From Tubiluchus corallicola (taxonomy: Eukaryota > Animalia > Priapulida), in the NCBI GenBank assembly GCA_030141605.1, contig JAQGDQ010000954.1, positions 1 through 64,000 on the forward strand: DNA of 64,000 nucleotides. Direction: 5' to 3'. The notes under the pieces were generated by a model. That model was not told the origin of the DNA. It made no database searches and saw only the letters and a program-made list of their open reading frames with translations. Shown piece after piece: positions 1,567 through 39,748 of this stretch; position 1 is the first letter of the stretch; every line of letters begins with the position of its first letter. A program made the position numbers and the translations under genes.

Positions 1567-15579
<14,013 letters not shown>

Positions 15580-15953: not shown

Positions 15954-17641
15954 GAATCTAAAACTAACGCATTAGAAAATAATATTGTAGTGATAGCTTG
16001 TGTCAAACATTTAAACAAATATTCTGATACATTTGTGAAACTAAAAATCAGAAAATATACTTTGCAACAAGAACTTATGATTGTATTTAAAGTTACAAAG
16101 AAGATCCTGACTGTTCTATGGCGGTCCTGTTCATCCCGGAAATCCAGTGTAGCATAATTAATCCCGGAAATCGAGTGTAGCAGGGTAATTGGTAGCCATT
16201 TGACTTGTAATGGAATAATTAAGTTTTTCTGTATTCTTTTCACTTCACTGTTTTGCACATCCATCTTAATTATAAAGACCCGCTAAGGCCTTCTAAAAAC
16301 TTTCGTGATTGTATTTCTACTTGGAAAAATTGAAGCCCTTTTAAACATTTTAATGACTTAAAAACGTATAAAAACTATTTTCTGGGATTATAGAAACGTT
16401 TAAGAGTCATAAGTCATTTATTTCACATTACACATTTACAATAGTTTCATGTACAATATCTAGTGAAAGGACCTACAATGAACATAATACACATAAGAAA
16501 TACTGCATAGGAAAAGCCTCAAACACTGTGCACCTATATACACAAATGTAAATGTGTTGCGGGCAATCAATTTATTGTGTGCACAATCATATCATTTTTC
16601 AACGAGAGCTAATTATGCAAACTTTGTGGTAAGATCTTTTGTCAAGACGACGAACATCCTTTTTTCTTTTTTTACACTTTGATTCTAACGTAATGTTTAC
16701 CGACTGTTCTCCACTTGTGATGCGCAGTAAGAAAAGCGCATGCGCTGGTCTGTTTCTGCCGTCAGAGGCGCAATCGAAGTACCGTGTTGCTTGTAGTTTT
16801 TCCCGCGCGATTAAAAAGAAGCTAATCACTCGTTTTGTAATTAGTTACGCAACAAAATATGTTCGATTTGTTTCCCAGAGACAAGTTTAGTACATTCACT
16901 TTGGTGATATTCCCCCCTTTAACTGATATAATTTTCCATTCAAAATGTCGTCCCGAGTCGAGGCAAGGTCAAATTTTATTAGTAAAACTTTTTATATACT
17001 ACGTCTATACCATATTGATACGCAGTTTGCATACCATGCCTCGGGACCCTAGCTGTGGCGGGTCTAAAGCTGCACTACGTCATACTTTGTTGTTGTTTTA
17101 ATTTTCATTTATTCTTACAAAAACTTTAAGGTACAAACAGAAACAATCCTCGCTACAGAAATTCTTATACGGGTTCACGCAATTCTGACAGCAATAGCGA
17201 CGGCCATGTTTGATATTATAAGAAAGTTGAAGAGAAACTTTTGCAACAGGACGCCCCATCAAGTCACTAGCTGACATCAATGTACACTTTATTGCTTGAA
17301 GGCTTTAAGCTACATTCATTGACAAGCAGTACGTGACTCTGGCACAGGCAAAGCATTAAATCTGGTTAGTTGCTAGAAACTACAAAGAATTAACGCCTCA
17401 CACGCTCACAAAAAATGGTTTTTTAACTCCAATTTTTGATCTGTGCTCTATAGTTCAAATGTTAATGAAATCTACGCATGCGCAGTCCCTTCAGCGCGAG
17501 AACGTTGGGTAAAAACTTGCAAACCCACCCCTCGCATTCGCAAAAATGGGCAAAACTTGAAAAGAAGGGTCTAGCTGAACACGAGAGAGGTATGTGTCTT
17601 ACACACAGGTCTGATCAGCGTGGTGAACGGGAGAAGACAAC

Positions 17642-18242
17642 ATGGCAGAGTTCAAGAAAAAGAGACAAAAGAGGTTGATATTGTTGGTGATCGTGCTGAG
17701 TTTAGTGCCAGTTATCATCGTCATTGCGCAGAACATTGTCTGGATGAAAGAAGCTGGCAAGACGGTTGTGAACATCAACAAACTTCACGAATCTTTCAAC
17801 TTTACGCTCAAGGTTGCTGACATCATGGACAAGATACAGACAGAAAGACATTTGACGCTAATCTATCTGGCCGCTACGAGTTCGCAAGGACGTAATCTGG
17901 TGCAGAAAACGTTAGAAAAAGCGTACGAAGCAACCGACCAAGCTTTTGAAATCATTAAATTTGATGAGTGGATTCGAGGTTCCGACGCGTTTCGAAGTCA
18001 AAATGACCTCAATGCGTACATTCGACAACACCGCACGGACCTCCAACCAAATTCTCCCAGAAAAGGGGAACTGAAATTCTACAATGACATCAATGAGAAA
18101 CTGTCGCATTGGGTTTCCGGTCAGCTCAAACAGGTGTCGCATACATCGAGCTGGGATACCATCACCTCGTTTATACTGTTAACCGAAGGAAAGGAAAGGA
18201 CCTCAAGGGCTGACACGCTTGGGACGATTCATTTTATGACCG
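17642..18242 (+). CDS. NIT-domain protein exon 1
   Basis: Long open frame from ATG to ACC G|gtattt, phase 1. Confidence 0.85.
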
Positions 18243-19561
18243 GTATTTCATTCTATTATGATTCCTATTATGACGCTATGCTGTATGCTCCAGAAAAATA
18301 GCATAAAATTAACTAATATTACGTTGATGTATAATATAAGTTTTGACCACATTGACATTAAATTTGACTGTGGAGATCTCACTGAGGTTTATAAAAACTG
18401 GTCGGAAACGAAAAGATTTCATTTTGTCCTTATTTAAAGTTAATCAAATAATTGTTTTTATCTAAACTTGCAAAGCCATAAACTCAACTAAACTGCGTAT
18501 TTTCTTGATTACAAAATGGTTTAATCAGCAACTCACAGACGTAAGCATTGTGCATTTCTTCCTATAAACGAAACTAGACTATATATGTCGCATATTGTAT
18601 CGAGTACGCGATTGTGGTATTATGTGATCAATTTAATTGTCAGTCTACTACACTGAAGTACTGATTTAGTCTATGCTGCCATCTACACTCTCTGACAAAC
18701 TTTGTACAATTAGAGTGTAGATGGCAGCATAGACTAAATCAGCACTTTAGTGTAGTAGACTGACAATTAAATGGATCACATAATACCACAATCGCGTACT
18801 CCGTACAATAAGCGACAATATATTTCCACAAATTCACTTGCATTTTTCGATAGACAAGTTGCAGTCTGGGGCTCTCAACCTCGAAGCTTGACGGGCCCTA
18901 GACTGTAGCCTATGCTAGCCTATAGGATAATCCACCCCTGGTTGCAAAGCTTGAGGGGCCCTAGACTGCAGCCTATACTAGCCTATAGGATAATTTGGCC
19001 CTGGTTGTTCGTCTGTGCACCCCTTTCAACCAGATGTTAGTAGAATTAATTATTGATTTTTGCGTTTTAGGATCGCTTAATGATGAAAACCACAAGAACT
19101 TCGTAAAAGCGAGTACTTTAGGCAAATTCTTTCTTCAAAACATCTTTCCCGCCTCTCCAGACACGGAAGGCGCCTATCGAGACTACACGTTATCCAAAGA
19201 CTACAGACAGAAGACCAAGTTGGACGCAGAAGTTCTAAACCAGAATCCGGTGGAAAACATGGCAGACAAGGTAAAAGAATGGAATCGCCTCCAAAAACCA
19301 TACGCCAAGTTGCTGCGGGAAATGTCTAACAACCTGCAGGACAAATTCGAACAGGATCTACGAGCAGAGAAACATGAGCAGTCAAGAGTCATTGGAGCAG
19401 GCGTGGCCGTACTCATCATCTCCCTCCTATGTTGGTTTATTGTGGTTATCTTGGTGAGAGCGTACGAATATGTGGCAATCAAGGCAGAGATGAAGTTGAT
19501 GATGAGATCAGCAACTGCCAAAATGCTCACCATGGCAGGCATGGCGGCCAGTATAAAATGA
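17642..19561 (+). CDS. NIT (nitrate/nitrite-sensing) domain protein with two TM helices and no cyclase domain, 363 aa
   Basis: join(17642-18242,19071-19561) = 1092 nt; caacATGG Kozak; basic N-tail + TM1 (LILLVIVLSLVPVIIVIA); NIT-like IMDKIQTERHLTLIYL, YEATDQA, FYNDIN, GKERTSRADTLG; TM2 (VIGAGVAVLIISLLCWFIVVILV); ~35-aa tail then stop. Confidence 0.8.
18586..18817. mobile_element. Palindromic MITE-like inverted repeat (~105-bp arms, ~21-nt loop)
   Basis: Arm 18586-18690 is near-perfect reverse complement of 18712-18817; TA-rich flanks. Confidence 0.8.
19071..19561 (+). CDS. NIT-domain protein exon 2
   Basis: gttttag|GA TCG, phase 1; open to TGA at 19559-19561. Confidence 0.85.
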
Positions 19562-19668
19562 GAAAGTTTTTGCAAAACGCCAAAAGATGGCGCGCTGTCT
19601 GTTATTAGAAACAATTGTGTGTGATGTCGTCTAATCACAAAAGTCTGCTAACCTTGAAAACAGTTTAA

Positions 19669-20130
19669 AGGGAAACTCAACGATTTATTAGAGACTCAAT
19701 CTCATTTTAATTTCCTGTGCAAAATATACATTTTCTTGCCTATAAAAGTTAACATATACTTGAATAATGAGCTTAGAACGTTAATTAACGGCAACCGAGC
19801 ACAGCTATTGCTTACGTCAGAAACTAACCACAGTTTGTGCAATGGCAGGTATCTCCCTTGCGCGTCAAGCACGATTGCGTAAGTGTTACAGTACTGCTTA
19901 AACGCGTGATGTCACGAAAATGGGCTATGCGTCATATGACGTCAGAAACTAACACGGCAGTTCATAATCATGGTTATCACGGTACCGCCTTCTATTTGTC
20001 GGCCACGCGCATGTCACAAAAAGGCATCGTTGCCAATCTTAGTAGATTTACTTACCCGCGCGTAACTTTGAAAGTTTAATAAAATTGAAGTGCATTCTTT
20101 ATTCTGAACTCGTGTTTACACAATCATCCT
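19669..20130. mobile_element. TTAA-flanked AGG...CCT (Kolobok-like) MITE
   Basis: ttaa|AGG ... CCT|ttaa; TIR otherwise weak. Confidence 0.45.
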
Positions 20131-31697: not shown

Positions 31698-31806
31698 TTT
31701 ATGATGCATGTGTATATAAAAATTAATTGTGAACGTCGGAAGCAAATGAGGCAAATAAAACATAACACTTTTGCGTCAAAGTTTCGGAATGTGAGTGGGT
31801 GTAAGT

Positions 31807-32219
31807 ATGGCAACTTACTGCTATTCGCGTGTTGTATATTCTTTCTTCCTAGATGCAAAACGTCAAAATTTGGTCCATTTTATTTCAAAACGTAGCTATG
31901 CCAGGTTTAGGTCACCGATTTTTCGACGCCGGCCCATTCGTGTGCTGAACCAAGAAGTTAAAAACACTGTTGAAGACCAAATTCATTTATTGGTCTCTAA
32001 CCCGGCTGAACTTCAAGTTAATAATGGTTCGTCGTATCGTGATGTTACTGAAATACAAAGCAATGAACGTTTGCCTAAATTAAGTGATAAGTTGAAAGCA
32101 AGAAAACAACCTTCCAGAGTCAAAGATGCAACAACAACTAGCGAGGACATTGAACCTCAAAAATTCAAGTGGAAGCCACCTAGTTACACAAAGCTTAAAG
32201 AGGACAGCAGGCAGTTCGG
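31807..32219 (+). CDS. MRM3: MRM3 exon 1 (mitochondrial presequence)
   Basis: MATYCYSR...FRRRPIRVL...DSRQFG|gtttgt, phase 2 joins exon 2. Confidence 0.8.
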
Positions 32220-35133
32220 GTTTGTATGATTTTAAGAAAAGTTGTACACGACTTTTTCACACTAAGTGCTGTTCTCTTGTGCAGTGTAAACTTGAATGTG
32301 AAGTTGTTTTTGGAAAGAGAAAATGGATGCCTGTCAGTGTGATGGACATGTATCTTAGACTACCTAGAATCACGGTGTTTTATAGGTTTTTATAGCAAGA
32401 ATATTTAGCACAGTTTAGTATTAAAATGCGTGATTATGTAAACTGCGATTTGTAAAGTCTTTTATAATTTCCCAATAATAGGATTCAATTCAATCAAAAT
32501 TTTATTTACCTCCAATACTATATTCATAAGACAATTACAACGAATTATGTAAAGTGTGTAGAAGTGGGGTGGCAAAAGACCAGGAGATCATCAAGTCAGC
32601 CACCCCTATATAACTTAAGAATGGTGTAAAGGACTGCAGAGTATATTGTTAGGCGCAAAATATGTAGTTAGGTCTTAGCGGAAAATATGTAGTTAGGTCT
32701 TAAATGTAGCAAATGAACAAAATGCAATGCAATTAAATCATGATTATAACAACGAAACAAGCAATTATTATTATTATAAGTCTTTATTTAAAATTTAAAA
32801 TTGAACGCATATACAAATATTTACATGAAATACATACAGGGACCCTCTATTTGCAGGGTATGGTTAAATAACTTTGTAAATAAAATAGCTGTTATATTTG
32901 TAAGACTTTTAAATACCAATAAATCAATATACCAATAAAAGATCAACTAAAATCAAATAGTACCAATTTACACAAAACGACCTGTATAATATAAAAGTGA
33001 CAGATATAATATAAAAGTTCAATATTTTATACTAAAGTTTGTAAAAACAAATCACAAACTAACTCAGAGAAAGCAACTAGCAGGTTTTTGTCTCGGGATG
33101 TCTCTTAAACTCAAAAAAGCAAGAAAGTAGTGCAGTTAAGATATAAATGTAACAAATGGACAAAAGCAGTCAATAATGCAGTTAAATCAATAATGTAGCA
33201 AATAGTCAGAAAAAGCAAGCTGTGCAGTTAACTTATGAATGTAGCTTTATAAATAAAAATCAAGCAAAAACTACAATTAAAAGTAAATGTAACAAATGAA
33301 CAAAAGCAAAAGAAGCAAATCACAAATACAGCGAATGAATGAAATTCAGTTAACTCATGAATGTAACAACGGAAAAAGCAAACAAGTAATGCTGTTAAGG
33401 CATAAATACAGCAAATAAATAAAAATCAAGCAAATGCTGTAGTTAAATTTATGAATGTACCTGATAAAACAAACAAACAAAAACTACATTTAAATTGAAA
33501 TGTTGCAAAGGAACAGACTAGACGCAAGTCATGAATCTAGGAATGAAAAATGCAGTTTAAATCAAGAATTTTTACAATGAAAAAAGCAAGCAAATGATGC
33601 TTGCTCTTGGTGCTCAAGAAACCGTAAAACACATTATATGCTTAAGCTTGAACATTTTTATGTGTGGCTGCCCTTGTTGCATTGATAGGCATAGGCAAAA
33701 TGTCAGGTTTTGGCTTTATGCTTAAAGAGAAATCTTGTCACTATCAAGTTTGCCAAATTTCATTGGATTTTGTATTTTTTACTTTTTCAGAGATGAAATG
33801 CTGCAGGCAAAGTCGAAAAAGAAACGCCAAACTTCCGGCAAAATCTTGCTAGAGGGACGAAGAATTATCAGTGATGCTTTGCGGGCTGGCGCTAAATTAC
33901 ACTCTCTTTATTTTACACAAGAACATTTGCTGAAGGATCTTCCATTGACAGAAAATCACTCTGAATCTTTATTCAAAATCACTTATAAGAAGATGTGCTT
34001 ATGGTCTGATGTAGAGACGCCATCTGGTATTATAGGTTGGTAAATTACATCCACGCGTTCCTCTATTAGGCTACTACAATTTTAGTTAATACAGTCAAGT
34101 TAGTTTAGAGCCAATAATAATAATGTTCTTATAAATGGTTGTTTATGAGGGACCATTTGTGTCTGTTCTGCATAGAAGAGTTACTCTGGTGCAGTAATTT
34201 ATTTCAAATTCGGGTGTTTTTTAGAAAAAATTTGTTTGTCTTTATCCGACCGTGTCGAAAAAGAAAAGTCGTGCTCAGGGATGCAAAAAATGTGCTGAAT
34301 TTGTCGCTTCACCCACAAAACAAATGGTCAAAACATTGAAAGGGTGTGGGCGCCAGAAGTTTTTTGCCCCCGGGCACCTCAAGCACTTGCTACGTCACTG
34401 ATTCAGATGTTATTGGTTTTACTGTGAGGGCAAGGAAAGCCAAGTGGTCATGATATGTGCTTCTCGATCGAAGTTGACCAATGCTGAATGTTTTTTAACT
34501 ATGTATGCTATGACTCATGGAATGAGTCATTTGACAACTGAGTTTAGTCTTGATAATGTTGCTAATATATACGAATTAATGAGTGTGGAAGATGATAAAA
34601 TGTTGTGTATATTTGCTTACTGTGCATTAAAAGCATACCGAGAGATATGAGATGCAATTTTGTTTGAATCACACGATAACTGCCTAATGGTTTGGCTCCA
34701 CTAGTTTTCTTGTTATTTGTATTTTTTCTTGTTGTATTTTTTATTTTTGGAACAAATGTTACTACTTGGAATGAGATGTATTTATGGGTTATTTGTTTTC
34801 CCCAGTCTTGTAACTTTTATGCACTTTTAATGTATGTACAGTTTGCAAATATTGATAAATAACTAATCGAATCGAATCTATATCTAATACCTACTCTGTG
34901 TGATTTCTGATACTGCATAATAGCTAATCTATTACTGGTTTTGAAATGTTTACTTTTTGCTTTTAAACTAGCATTTTTACTAGTGCTTTAAATCTGTATT
35001 TTAATTTTCAAGATTTACAATTAATTGTATATTATTGTAACGAGTGAACTGATGCAGTGTACTGCGCCTAAAAAATAAATTATTATTATTATCATTATTA
35101 TTATCGTTATCGTTATTATCATTATCATTATCG

Positions 35134-35164
<31 letters not shown>

Positions 35165-38100
35165 CATTATCATTATCATCATTATCATCATTATCATGAT
35201 CATCATTATCATCATTATCATGATTATCATTATCATCATTATCATGATTATCATTATCATCATTATCATGATTATTATTATTATTATTATCATTATCATC
35301 ATTATCATGATCATCATTATCATGATTATCATCATTATTATCATTATTATTATTATCATTATTATCATTATCATCATCATTATTATTATCATTATCATCA
35401 TTATTATTATTATCATCATTATCATTATTATTATTTCATTTGGTGCACTGATCCTGGCTGCTTACACCATTTGGGAAGGATGTATTTAGGTTGATTTTGA
35501 TTAATACTTCTGTCAGTTTTGTGTCTTAAAGAGAGTTAGCCTTGATAAAGAGCAAGTCGTAGACTCTTTTCATTCAGGGACTGTGTATTTAATTTTTCAT
35601 TTATCAGCCCAATGCTATCTTTCCTCAACAACGAGTCTGTCTTCTTTTCTAGGTATTTTTCACATGCCAGACTACAAGGACATGATTTTCTCTGACTACC
35701 AACAGATTCCATTGACTCTGATTTGTGATAACATACGTGATCCGGGTAACATGGGTACAATACTTCGTTCCGTGGCGGCGGTCGGATGCCACAATGTTGT
35801 CTTATTGAAAGGTATGCAAGATTTATCTTACTCAGCAGTATACAAGATTTGTGCTTTTGCCGTAATCAAGTTCTCCAAAGTAGGAGGATGCTTACATTGT
35901 TGTAGCAGTGATATTAGCTCTTAAACTATGCAGTCAGACTGCAGAGAAAATTTACTAAATAAGTAAGTTTTTTCTATGAAAGTTTCATTTTAAAGGCATA
36001 AACCACCCGTAGTTAAGGAGTTGGTAAGTCACAGCTTTAAATTCATTACTTAAAAACCATGTGTGAAAGTCATGTTTGAGGTTGTAGTTGAACACTTTGT
36101 AGAAAACGAATAAAACACTATACTACATATCTGCACAAAACTGAAAGCGTTTATTAGACTACATACACATATGTAGAATGACTGCTACACTGAACACCGA
36201 GAATAAGAGTGTCCTGCACTGATCACTGAGAGTTAGACAGTAAGTAACATGAGTATCATGACTTCTGCACTGCACTGAGAGTGAGACAGTGACTAGAAGT
36301 AGAATCCAGTCAGTATGTATAGGTATAGGTAATTATGCAAACTTGGCTTCACAAAAACCATTACTGTAAAATAGGGAGAGATCCAGTCAGTATGCATATT
36401 CAGTGGATCGTACAATTATACTAGGGGTGAGTTTAGCTAGTAAAATGTAAAGGGATTAGTTAATAGATGGCAGCACCTAAAATATACAGTTACAATTTCC
36501 GCACCATGTTTTTTTGTTCCCGGAACGTGACCGGGATCCATCAGTCACGAGACTGCGACAAGATGTTTTCCTTGTTTTGCTATAGTGCTAAAGATTCTGT
36601 AGAGAAACATCGTGTCGTAATTGATTTACACACAGTAATGTGAAATTCACAGTGTTGGAAAGGTTCAGCACTTGCTGTGGTGGTTTCGTTTGCCTCATTG
36701 CTTGTGGGTGTTCACCTCATTCAGGGGGGGGGTTGCTTTTGCTGGTCGGCTTTCTCACCTTGGATAACTAACCTTGATAGCAAGATAGTCCATGGCATAA
36801 ACTAGAGCTTCAGACACCCGGGACGGCACTTGAATTAAACAGATTTAATAAAAGCCTGATAGCATAAAAAAAGTGAAAAACAATGTATTTTATGTGCGCA
36901 TATTATCTTTTTATTTTGAATAAGTTTAGTAAATTAATGATGGAATGAAATCAAACTCCGTGGCATCAAATGTTATTTTAAAACTGCTCCATTTCGTAAC
37001 TTACAACAATACACACGTGACATGTTAGTACCGTAACAAGAATGAAGTCGATGCACAAGAAACTGTAAAATCGTTATGAAACTAAGTACTGTGATACTAT
37101 GTAAATGATATCAACGCAGTACAGTCTAGTCTCGTTATCTCGCCACTGTCCGTCTAGGGCAAATTTTTGGCGAGAGGCGAGTATGGCGAGGTAACGGGAA
37201 TATAACGAAGTTAGTCTAGATGTATATACATAATAGTTGATTAACATAGTGTTCTTCTATGTACATATAAAATATATTTCGCATTATGATACCTATCAAC
37301 ATTAAATCAGAAATGAAAAAATGTCATTAACCAACCACAGCACTCCTAATCTAATCCTGGTGAGACACACACTAGATTAATTATGTCTGTCGATCGAGTA
37401 CAGCAGCATTGTCTAGATACCGCGGTTATATTGATCGACACGCGGTATATGTATTGATCGATTCACCTCTGAGTTTGTCTGTTTGGTGACATAACGAATA
37501 TAGTTTACATAAGCACTCATCCTAGCATGACGTGGCGAGGGCGAGAAGCGAGGGTGGCGACTTAACGAGGTAAATATCAAAGCAGGAAATCCGTCCTGGT
37601 ACTTTCTATGGCGAGAGACGAGTTTGGCAGCATAACGAGGGGCGAGATAACGAGGCTAGACTGTATGTTAATTTATGAAATAAAAAAATCAACTGCTACA
37701 CTTTACTAGAATTCTACAAAATAATAAAACATGAAAAGAACTAATAAAAATTTGTTTACTAAGGGAGAGATGAATTCACCCTGCGCGTTTCATAAAGCAA
37801 AAACCTTGTTGCTTCGCAGTTCCTTCAAATTTAAGAAAACAGAGATTATATGAATGTGTTTTGCAGTGCATCAGTTAACATGAAACGTGTACAGTAACTT
37901 GAAAGCAGAGAATGAAATATCACATGGCTATTAAATGACTAATTGTTAATGATACGTTATCACGTTCGTTTGCTATCAACTGTCGGCAAGAAGTGCTACA
38001 AGCAGTGGTTTCGTGGAAAATATACAGGCGTTTGTTTTTCTACTGTGCCGACAGAATCAACTTTCTCAGTGCCGCCCTCTGAAAATAATCATCTGATAAT

Positions 38101-39748
38101 TATGAAAATAATAATCAAAACTGAGCTCTGAGATTGTAAATATGTTATTTTACTAGTACCAAAACTGAGCTCTGAGATTGTAAATATGTTATTTTACTAG
38201 TACCAAAACTGAGCTCTGAGGTTGTAAATATGTTATTTTACTAGTACCAAAACTGAGCTGTGAGATTGTAAATATGTTATTTTACTAGTACCAAAACTGA
38301 GCTCTGAGGTTGTAAATATGTTATTTTACTAGTACCAAAACTGAGCTGTGAGATTGTAAATATGTTATTTTACTAGTACCAAAACTGAGCTCTGAGATTG
38401 TAAATATGTTATTTTACTAGTACCAAAACTGAGCTCTGAGGTTGTAAATATGTTATTTTACTAGTACCAAAACTGAGCTCTGAGATTGTGAATATGTTAT
38501 TTTACTAGTACCATAACTGAGCTCTGAGGTTGTAAATATGCTGTTTTGCTAGTACCAAAACTGAGCTCTGAGATTGTAAATACATTTGATCGAAGTGCCA
38601 CCCTCTGAAAAGTGATCCTCACCCCCTAGCTATGTCATTGACACAGTCTCCTGTCCTGCCACAGCCATTTGCACTGAGAAGGCCTTGCCGTCTGATGGTT
38701 GATCATAACTTGCAGAGTGTCAAACTTTATAAAAAGTTAGACATGCTAAATAGCCTTGAACACTTTGATAACTCAGTTGTAACAAGTATTAATTGGGCAA
38801 AGTAATGTAAAATTTGCAAAATTGGTAATCATTCATGTGTCAGTACTGCATATAGGTTTAACCTCACTTATGGTGAATGTATATGGTCCATGTAGGGAAT
38901 GTACTGTCAAACGTCCTCATAACATCCCCCTCTTTTATAATGCCAACCTCGCTTACTGCCCAAATTTTTAACAAAACAGAATATCTATTTTTACGTAGAC
39001 ATGTATGTATTAAAGTGCGTTGTTGTGATGCCAAATTCACTATAACTGCAACTTTTTTGTAATTTCAAAGTAGGTAGTATAAAGAGGTTTGACTGTACAT
39101 GCCACATGTGTAAACATAGCATATACTATAAATGTGTTTCTATTTATAGGTTGTGTGGATATTTGGGACCCCAAGGTACTGCGTGCCGGAGCCGGAGCTC
39201 ATTTTCGTGTGCCGATTATAAACAGCGTCGAATGGCGACTTATGAATAATTACATCAATGCAAATTCTTTGGTTTACCTTGCTGACAACTTGGCTAGCAG
39301 TCCTAACAAACTTGAAGACCACATGTTAGCAAATGAGAACGTCAATTTACAAGATAATGGCAATGATGATGTTGTTGATGATGATGACAGTGGCATTGAC
39401 GACGAGCCCGGAGAGTATGAAATCGAGCAAAGCACGGGGCTGATTATAGACAGTTCGTATGACGATGATTTCAAACTTGAAAAGTATTCACATTTGGAAC
39501 TGCCGACATTACCGTATACAGATATCAGCGTAAACGGTCTTCGCGACATCGTCTTAGTTGTCGGTGGTGAAACGCACGGTCTCAGTAACGCAGCTCTAAA
39601 GCTGGCATACGATTATGATGGGTGTAGAGTTAATATTCCTATGACGAAAGGTAGTGACAGTTTAAACGCAGCCATAGCCACAAGTGTAATTGCATTTGAG
39701 ATCAGACGACAGTTCCATGAGCTTCGACAGCAGAATACTGTTGCATAG
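31807..39748 (+). CDS. MRM3: rRNA methyltransferase 3, mitochondrial (SPOUT/TrmH family; whole gene, 471 aa)
   Basis: join(31807-32219,33791-34035,35653-35811,39150-39748) = 1416 nt; Arg-rich N-terminal presequence, [77 protein letters not shown]. Confidence 0.95.
33791..34035 (+). CDS. MRM3: MRM3 exon 2
   Basis: [27 protein letters not shown]...WSDVETPSGIIG. Confidence 0.93.
35078..35435. repeat. (ATT/ATC)n microsatellite
   Basis: Directly visible. Confidence 0.97.
35653..35811 (+). CDS. MRM3: MRM3 exon 3
   Basis: IFHMPD...[27 protein letters not shown]. Confidence 0.95.
36062..36503. mobile_element. Solo LTR-like element, copy A (MRM3 intron 3)
   Basis: TG...CA ends, perfect 5-bp TSD CCATG; colinear with 39815-40176. 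Confidence 0.72.
37122..37663. mobile_element. pogo/Tigger-like MITE
   Basis: TA TSD; 23-bp TIR CAGTCTAG(T/C)CTCGTTATCTCGCC, 22/23 match. Confidence 0.88.
38116..38582. repeat. 44-bp tandem repeat, ~10.5 copies
   Basis: Unit CAAAACTGAGCTCTGAGATTGTAAATATGTTATTTTACTAGTAC. Confidence 0.96.
39150..39748 (+). CDS. MRM3: MRM3 exon 4
   Basis: [19 protein letters not shown]...GGETHGLS...[19 protein letters not shown]. Confidence 0.95.

What the first reader, a model, noticed from the sequence alone, without database searches (positions are those of the whole stretch)
17642..19561. Stand-alone animal NIT-domain receptor: the sensor half of a NIT-guanylyl cyclase with no cyclase
Seen: an intact two-exon 363-aa ORF with TM1, a ~270-aa helical domain with NIT-like motifs (IQTERH, YEATD, FYNDIN, GKER), TM2 and a ~35-aa tail ending in a clean stop. 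No cyclase-like exon is visible between the stop and MRM3. Known: NIT is a bacterial nitrate/nitrite sensor module (NasR, chemoreceptors); in invertebrates it occurs fused to guanylyl cyclase (NIT-GCs, linked to nitric-oxide signalling in Platynereis). Inference: this is an output-less sensor. The tail (KAEMKLMMRSATAKMLTMAGMAASIK) loosely resembles the coiled-coil/'LL.QMLP..VA..LK' dimerisation helix and stops where the catalytic domain would begin. It could be a decoy, a dominant-negative or heterodimeric modulator of NIT-GCs, or couple to a different effector.
Basis: partly seen in the sequence, partly recalled or inferred. Interest (0 to 1): 0.8.

Follow-up and report, generated by a model that had tools for sequence, protein, structure and literature searches.

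The report
Cyclase-less nitrate-sensor-type receptor in animals
This invertebrate gene encodes a two-membrane-span protein carrying the outer nitrate-sensor-type (NIT) domain of a cGMP-making receptor but no enzyme part; it is conserved and spliced in close relatives, and it likely works as a "silent" partner that would damp the full-length receptors, an arrangement my searches did not find described for this receptor family in animals.

Summary
The gene is real: two exons (17642-18242, 19071-19561), 363 aa, TM-NIT-TM plus a 34-aa tail. NIT is confirmed by Pfam (E 1e-20 on the orthologue) and by fold (NasR, Z 26). No cyclase exon lies in the 64 kb. A related taxon's contig splices the intron and reads past the suspected donor at 19454. 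A second relative's protein ends at the same residue. dN/dS is about 0.07. Seven cyclase-less proteins, one a Priapulus RefSeq model, form one side of a branch (90/85), so this looks like an old subfamily, not a broken copy. Best guess (0.4): an NPR-C-like silent subunit that pairs with NIT-cyclases; a complex prediction gave only weak support. An output-less TM-NIT-TM protein is already described in the alga Pelagomonas; I found none described in animals. The scan noted NIT-cyclases before on other DNA, but no cyclase-less form. New variant of a known kind.

The parts
17642..18242 (+). Exon 1 coding part: ATG, basic N-terminus, TM1, first four-helix half of the NIT domain (codons 1-200 plus one base)
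   Evidence: in-frame stop upstream at 17624-17626; X2 contig covers 17635-18240
17675..17731 (+). TM1 (residues 12-30), preceded by 6 basic residues in 1-11
   Evidence: hydropathy; charge count
17846..17848 (+). Arg69, first conserved NIT pocket arginine (kept)
   Evidence: R in 46 of 47 cyclase-bearing rows of alignment A3
18209..18214 (+). Ala190-Asp191 in place of the second conserved Glu-Arg of the NIT pocket (lost)
   Evidence: E in 31 and R in 36 of 47 cyclase-bearing rows; N in P0001, K in P0002, G in P0009, R in P0081, P0003, P0012
18243..19070 (+). Phase-1 GT..AG intron, 828 nt, at a position that appears shared with NIT-GC genes
   Evidence: X2 contig skips 828 nt here; 23 of 31 short database fragments end within 30 residues after this column
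19071..19561 (+). Exon 2 coding part: second half of NIT, TM2, tail and stop
   Evidence: X2 contigs cover 19069-19525 and 19532-19566
19400..19456 (+). TM2 (residues 311-329); holds the GT at 19454 that the laid contigs read through
19457..19561 (+). 34-aa basic, Met/Ala-rich helical tail and TGA stop
   Evidence: 27 of 34 residues identical in P0001, same last residue; 2 listed differences in 50 nt in X2; helix in model

Best explanation
The gene encodes a conserved two-membrane-span NIT-domain protein with no cyclase, likely derived from an animal NIT-guanylyl cyclase by loss of the catalytic exons, and it likely acts as a silent subunit that would pair with full-length NIT-cyclases and lower or tune their cGMP output, as NPR-C does for the natriuretic peptide receptors. 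Shown: gene structure, NIT domain, absence of a cyclase in the window, splicing and read-through in relatives' contigs, purifying selection, loss of the second pocket Glu-Arg. Inferred: topology (both ends inside, NIT outside); descent from a NIT-GC; dimer formation through the NIT and membrane helices; a mixed dimer would hold only one cyclase domain and so make no cGMP, because these cyclases need two (PMC10334801, passages); the altered pocket would make the effect independent of nitrate or tuned to another ligand; the conserved tail would serve trafficking or packing against the partner's helix.
For: All animal relatives with an output domain carry a cyclase after the same TM-NIT-TM unit. 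The intron position appears shared with them. Constraint is strong: 33 synonymous against 11 non-synonymous listed differences to X2, dN/dS 0.074, p 5e-15. Seven cyclase-less proteins are one side of a branch, 90/85, at 17-29% identity for the distant ones, so the state is old. The chain ends 40 residues after the TM2 reference column; the cyclase helix motif of NIT-GCs ends 43 residues after it in 27 of 34. The pocket is degenerate here and in 2 further members, one of which (P0009) lacks both arginines, which suits a role that needs no ligand. Precedent: NPR-C, with a 37-aa tail, forms inactive heterodimers with NPR-A/B without needing ligand or the intracellular domain (PMC10334801, passages). 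Predicted complex of P0001 with the Priapulus NIT-GC P0008 (42-415): weak support, score 0.44, best of 3 controls 0.00, runs agree in at least 69% of contacts, partner pLDDT at least 78; the mark was reached by 51 of 78 solved and 2 of 108 mismatched pairs, but at 0.60 or under by only 5 of those 78 and by all 4 mismatches that passed.
Against: The tail has no sequence match to the NIT-GC signalling helix (79 of 500 shuffles as good; P0001 29 of 500; four truncated NIT-GC pieces 0 of 500), so pairing through that helix is unsupported. The complex score is in the range where a pass is more often wrong than right, used a stand-in cyclase from another species and the orthologue rather than the window protein, and relatives of a true partner can pass by likeness. 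No NIT-GC of this genome was seen and co-expression is unknown (no genome held). Three of the seven cyclase-less proteins keep the second arginine, and 11 of 47 cyclase-bearing rows lack it, so its loss is neither universal in the group nor proof of no ligand.
Confidence: 0.42

Rival explanations
1. A stand-alone receptor for a small ligand (not necessarily nitrate) that signals through its conserved tail to another effector, such as a G protein, channel or adaptor.
For: The tail is as conserved as the NIT domain (79% against 82% and 63% for the two NIT halves), shows 2 listed differences in 50 nt where neutral DNA would show about 17 (p 2e-7) and weakly resembles the tail of P0002 (p about 0.04). 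Arg69 is kept. The last NIT helix, TM2 and tail form one predicted helix, 265-362, suited to passing a signal inward. A bacterial NIT domain (PA4520) bound neither nitrate nor nitrite, and its authors propose subfamilies with other ligands (PMC6381276, passages). The Pelagomonas TM-NIT-TM protein is proposed as an external sensor (PMC9481584, passages).
Against: No known effector motif was identified in the tail; tails of P0009, P0003, P0012 and P0081 do not match the window's beyond chance (p 0.10-0.95); the pocket has an Arg-to-Asp charge reversal.
Confidence: 0.27
2. The sensor half of a split receptor: it assembles in trans with a separately encoded cyclase and activates it rather than inhibiting it.
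For: The chain ends where the cyclase would begin. Earlier scan notes describe half-site NIT-GCs in other genomes that need partners (unchecked leads).
Against: No cyclase gene in the 64 kb; the tail has lost the helix sequence that joins sensor to cyclase; the pocket is degenerate.
Confidence: 0.1
3. A ligand sink, or a structural or adhesion surface protein that has left cGMP signalling altogether.
For: Long branches in the cyclase-less group and repeated pocket decay fit a change of function; clearance is NPR-C's classical role (PMC10334801, passages).
Against: Removing a small anion or gas by receptor binding is an inefficient sink (inference); the NIT fold and both membrane spans are fully kept.
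Confidence: 0.14
4. Not cyclase-less: the main transcript leaves exon 2 at an internal donor and joins distant cyclase exons, or the gene is a decaying duplicate.
For: A plausible donor lies at 19454 and is unchanged in the listed X1 and X2 differences. Contigs drop rare splice forms; no RNA of this genome was laid; truncated NIT-GC models are common in the databases.
Against: The X2 contig (depth 185) reads 72 nt past 19454; a second contig spans the stop and stops matching 5 nt after it. P0001 ends at the same residue. dN/dS 0.07-0.10 in both exons. No cyclase exon before or after the same-strand MRM3 gene in the window.
Confidence: 0.07

Closest known systems
Animal NIT-domain guanylyl cyclases (NIT-GC; Moroz et al. 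2020 PMC7400543; Platynereis NIT-GC1, bioRxiv 10.1101/2023.08.02.551600; first noted in PMC1592074)
   Same: NIT domain between two membrane spans; nearest homologues by sequence; apparently the same intron.
   Different: No signalling-helix sequence and no cyclase; short N-terminus; second pocket Glu-Arg replaced. Those surveys were built on cyclase domains (passages), and the Moroz tables hold Priapulus XP_014670017 but not the cyclase-less XP_014668357.
Pelagomonas calceolata TM-NIT-TM protein (PMC9481584)
   Same: Same architecture: NIT between two membrane spans and no output domain drawn or described (passages).
   Different: An alga; its homologues are reported as restricted to pelagophytes, dictyochophytes and one putative cryptophyte. 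The window protein's relatives are animal NIT-GCs, so the two likely arose separately (inference; the algal sequence was not compared).
NPR-C / NPR3, natriuretic peptide clearance receptor (PMC10334801)
   Same: Cyclase-less member of a receptor guanylyl cyclase family with a short tail (37 aa against 34 aa); model for the proposed mechanism.
   Different: Different ligand-binding fold, one membrane span, peptide ligand; an analogy, not a homologue.
NasR NIT domain (PDB 4AKK) and bacterial NIT chemoreceptors and kinases
   Same: Fold: Z 26.3, rmsd 3.2 A over 267 residues, next row Z 12.6; Foldseek E 3.6e-4, TM 0.58.
   Different: Bacterial proteins carry an output domain (ANTAR, MCP, kinase) and keep both Glu-Arg motifs (P0087, P0111).

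Membership tests
NIT domain (PF08376) | Profile match above the curated cut-off over most of the model | tested here: met
   Exon 1: 48.3 bits, cut-off 24.9; orthologue P0001: 75.6 bits, profile 3-238 of 239
NIT domain (PF08376) | Double four-helix-bundle fold like NasR | tested here: met
   Model of P0001, pLDDT 93.5; 4AKK top in both searches
NIT domain (PF08376) | Two conserved arginines at the bundle interface, thought to bind ligand (PMC7400543 Fig. 7B legend) | tested here: not met
   Arg69 kept; column 191 is Asp in the window, Asn in P0001. Equating this column with NasR E175/R176 (PMC7496416) is inferred from the motif; NasR was not aligned by sequence
NIT domain (PF08376) | Binds nitrate, nitrite or NO | not testable with these tools
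   needs a binding assay
Animal NIT-GC | NIT flanked by two membrane spans | tested here: met
   residues 12-30 and 311-329
Animal NIT-GC | C-terminal cyclase domain PF00211 | tested here: not met
   none in the protein or in the 64 kb
Animal NIT-GC | Signalling helix after TM2 | tested here: not met
   79 of 500 shuffles score as well; controls 0 of 500; only length and predicted helicity are kept
Animal NIT-GC | Descent from the animal NIT-GC group | tested here: inconclusive
   Nested among NIT-GCs next to Priapulus P0008 in a quick 73-row tree (SH-aLRT 89); long branches, midpoint root; intron evidence circumstantial
NPR-C-like silent receptor (works like) | Cyclase-less family member kept under selection | tested here: met
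NPR-C-like silent receptor (works like) | Heterodimer with a cyclase-bearing paralogue | tested here: inconclusive
   weak support, 0.44 against best control 0.00, stand-in partner
NPR-C-like silent receptor (works like) | Lowers cGMP output on co-expression | not testable with these tools
   needs a cell assay

The most novel reading that the evidence does not exclude
An old, diversified subfamily of cyclase-free NIT receptors in a marine invertebrate lineage that includes Priapulus, with re-tuned pockets, which either silence NIT-cyclases as obligate partners or have taken up new ligands and a new, non-cGMP output through a short conserved tail: a second independent invention of the NPR-C 'silent receptor' design, in the gas/anion-sensing branch of receptor cyclases.
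Probability: 0.4. Interest if true: 0.7.

Novelty: new variant of a known kind. Interest (0 to 1): 0.5.

Why it matters
Animal NIT-cyclases are a recently described route for NO or nitrite sensing, and what their NIT domain binds is open. A conserved natural form that has dropped the enzyme and half of the pocket gives a ready test: does the NIT-TM unit dimerise across paralogues, which residues are needed for the response, and do invertebrates regulate this pathway with silent subunits as vertebrates regulate natriuretic peptide receptors? Published surveys were seeded with the cyclase domain and would have missed such genes. The limits: function is untested, the lineage is not identified, and the bare architecture is already known from an alga.

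Tried and rejected
No whole genome is held, so paralogues and NIT-GCs of this genome could not be searched. The run search listed no holder on record as RNA; this says nothing on expression. A word-index search with a five-sequence alignment returned only 2 of its own members. A search with the last MRM3 exon to place the organism gave 2 hits at E 1e-30 or better, the named one a scorpion at 44%: not informative. PDB sequence search: 0 matches. ESM Atlas feature searches returned bacterial NIT clusters only. Cyclase search by tblastn: best E 0.06, on scattered pieces, rejected as noise. The tail-helix resemblance was tested and rejected (a first try failed on a script error). Of five GT sites from 19454 onward, 19495 is changed in X1 and the others are read through by X2 contigs. 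Short database entries P0049, P0060, P0014, P0079 were set aside from the cyclase-less group because their tails match the NIT-GC helix and they sit among cyclase-bearing rows; P0085, P0099, P0118 and P0058 were set aside on tree position or a kept helix motif without that test. Earlier-finding searches by sequence, by 'NIT' in this genome and for a cyclase-less form gave nothing.

Full report
Observation. The window holds an ATG at 17642 with an in-frame stop 18 nt upstream. Exon 1 (17642-18242) and exon 2 (19071-19561) join through an 828-nt phase-1 GT..AG intron into 363 codons and a stop, with hydrophobic spans at residues 12-30 and 311-329 and a 34-residue tail. Exon 1 matches Pfam NIT (E 2.3e-12); exon 2 alone matches nothing significant. 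Six basic residues precede TM1 and the tail is net +4, which fits both ends inside and NIT outside (inference). Neighbours are an amino-acid permease upstream and MRM3 downstream on the same strand (4 of the 10 exon pieces scanned hit MRM3-type families or SpoU and 2 hit the permease, counting by piece: 2 permease, 3 MRM3/SpoU, 5 none).

No cyclase nearby. A profile of 30 NIT-GC C-terminal halves run over all six frames of the 64 kb gave a best E of 2; four 35-residue control pieces from a held-out cyclase scored E 4e-15 to 8e-8. tblastn with 37 full NIT-GCs hit only exon 1 in the rows listed. No genome is held, so nothing beyond the window was searched.

Transcript evidence, from relatives. 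A search with exon 1 found 1 protein among 114 candidates: P0001, 363 aa, from a 1321-nt Logan contig. It aligns without gaps at 274 of 363 identities and ends at the same residue. Its contig is too short to hold the coding sequence plus an intron of this size, so it is likely a spliced transcript (inference; the DNA was not seen). Of 2 runs listed, X2 (RNA by guess) holds a 1116-nt contig, depth 185, that skips 828 nt at the intron, differs at 144 of 1063 aligned bases, and reads to 19525, where adapter sequence begins; X2 has no cover in the intron bins 18248-18975. A second X2 contig covers 19532-19566, across the stop, and then runs on unlike the window; its 3 differences are not listed, so the stop itself is not seen in X2. 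X2 differs from P0001 at residue 14, so these are two separate relatives. Contigs drop rare splice forms, and no RNA of the window's own species was laid.

Selection. Of the X2 differences, 33 rows at 17668-17953 (178 further rows were not shown; 33 in about 300 nt matches the contig's overall rate) split 25 synonymous to 8 non-synonymous, and 11 rows at 19411-19506 (11 of 16 shown) split 8 to 3: pooled dN/dS 0.074, Fisher p 5e-15 (classified by eye from the codon table). In the tail, 19457-19506, only 2 differences are listed in 50 nt, against about 17 expected of neutral DNA (p 2e-7), so it is not intron read-through. X1, near-identical DNA that may not be independent of the window's source, shows 9 synonymous and 2 non-synonymous differences among 11 of 12 seen.

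Fold and pocket. The model of P0001 (85-row alignment, pLDDT 93.5, pTM 0.83) is all-helical with one helix from 265 to 362. It matches NasR 4AKK at Z 26.3, rmsd 3.2 A, 267 residues, the next row at 12.6 (Foldseek E 3.6e-4). In alignment A3, 47 of 85 rows carry a cyclase motif; 46 of them keep Arg69, and 36 keep the second arginine at column 191. The window has Ala190-Asp191 for Glu-Arg. Two arginines at the bundle interface are thought to bind ligand (PMC7400543, passages); NasR E175 and R176 were predicted to be in the pocket (PMC7496416, passages), and mapping them onto this motif is my inference. One bacterial NIT domain bound neither nitrate nor nitrite (PMC6381276, passages). Nitrate sensing by this protein is therefore doubtful, not excluded.

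A subfamily. A full HMMER scan with P0001 gave 121 hits; 66 were scanned with Pfam. The two best after P0001 are cyclase-less proteins of the same size (P0002, 373 aa; P0003, 367 aa); P0009 (371 aa), P0081 (422 aa) and P0012 (Priapulus caudatus XP_014668357, a model lacking TM1) are others. The four unnamed ones come from single Logan contigs of 1.3-1.6 kb, long enough for whole reading frames, but their stops were not seen. In a quick tree of 73 rows, tails mostly excluded, they group with the Priapulus NIT-GC P0008 (SH-aLRT 89). In a careful tree of 27 of those rows, tails excluded, the seven cyclase-less rows are one side of a branch at 90/85 (bootstrap not settled; long branches; midpoint root; P0081 was added to the group after the first tree; other truncated entries were left out). 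The only named member is Priapulus, and two earlier notes on this genome also point to Priapulus (unchecked), so a priapulid or related lineage is likely but not shown (one search was uninformative).

Tail. Against a profile of 36 NIT-GC juxtamembrane helices the window tail scores no better than shuffles (79 of 500; P0001 29, P0003 7, P0002 245, P0009 424, P0012 415, P0081 473), whereas four truncated NIT-GC entries score 0 of 500. Five of the six database members end 38-47 residues after the TM2 reference column, where the NIT-GC motif ends at 43 in 27 of 34. The length of the helix is kept, its sequence is not.

Mechanism. Receptor guanylyl cyclases need two catalytic domains; NPR-C, which has a 37-residue tail and no cyclase, forms inactive heterodimers with NPR-A and NPR-B without ligand (PMC10334801, passages). 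The window protein has the same design in the NIT branch, and a decayed pocket suits a ligand-independent role. A predicted complex of P0001 with P0008 residues 42-415 gave weak support: 0.44, best of 3 controls 0.00, at least 69% contact agreement, partner pLDDT at least 78; 51 of 78 solved and 2 of 108 mismatched pairs reach the mark, but at 0.60 or under only 5 of the 78 and all 4 passing mismatches do; on eukaryotes 39 of 65 solved and 2 of 126 unrelated pairs; relatives of true partners can pass by likeness. I give the silent-partner model 0.42, a stand-alone receptor with another ligand or effector 0.27, a sink or structural role 0.14, a split receptor 0.10, and artefact or hidden cyclase 0.07.

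Novelty. The library lacks most subscription journals. An output-less TM-NIT-TM protein is described in the alga Pelagomonas (PMC9481584, passages), and the ESM Atlas holds a 64-member, mostly arthropod cluster with a 386-aa representative that shows NIT alone, which may be real or split models. So the architecture is not unprecedented, and cyclase loss may have happened more than once. Verdict: a real, conserved, likely expressed cyclase-less variant of the animal NIT-GC family; new variant of a known kind; interest 0.5.

Noticed in passing
window 18586-18817: Long inverted repeat inside the intron (arms of 106 nt, 94% complementary, 20-nt spacer), likely a MITE; X1 depth of several hundred shows a repeat family.
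   Followed up: partly
window 18884-19007: Two tandem copies of a 61-nt unit, 89% alike, in the intron.
   Followed up: no
window 19600-20100: A very high-copy repeat begins about 40-130 nt after the stop (X1 summed depth up to 33,000; pieces also in X2), so the 3' UTR likely runs into a mobile element.
   Followed up: no
P0049 / P0122 (Lepeophtheirus salmonis XP_071745001, XP_040569457) and an ESM Atlas cluster of 64 mostly arthropod proteins: RefSeq models of 392-395 aa with TM-NIT-TM that stop just before the cyclase, keeping the helix sequence; either a second, arthropod cyclase-less group or split gene models.
   Followed up: partly
P0009: A cyclase-less member that has lost both pocket arginines, the clearest pseudo-sensor of the group.
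   Followed up: partly
window about 4567-14390 (+), 31795-39745 (+), 42833 onward (+): Neighbours: an amino-acid permease and MRM3 (Pfam); the next gene looks like TTC17 by recall only, with no Pfam hit in the pieces scanned.
   Followed up: partly
alignment A3, column 191: 11 of 47 cyclase-bearing animal NIT proteins also lack the second pocket arginine, so ligand diversity in NIT-GCs themselves is likely.
   Followed up: no
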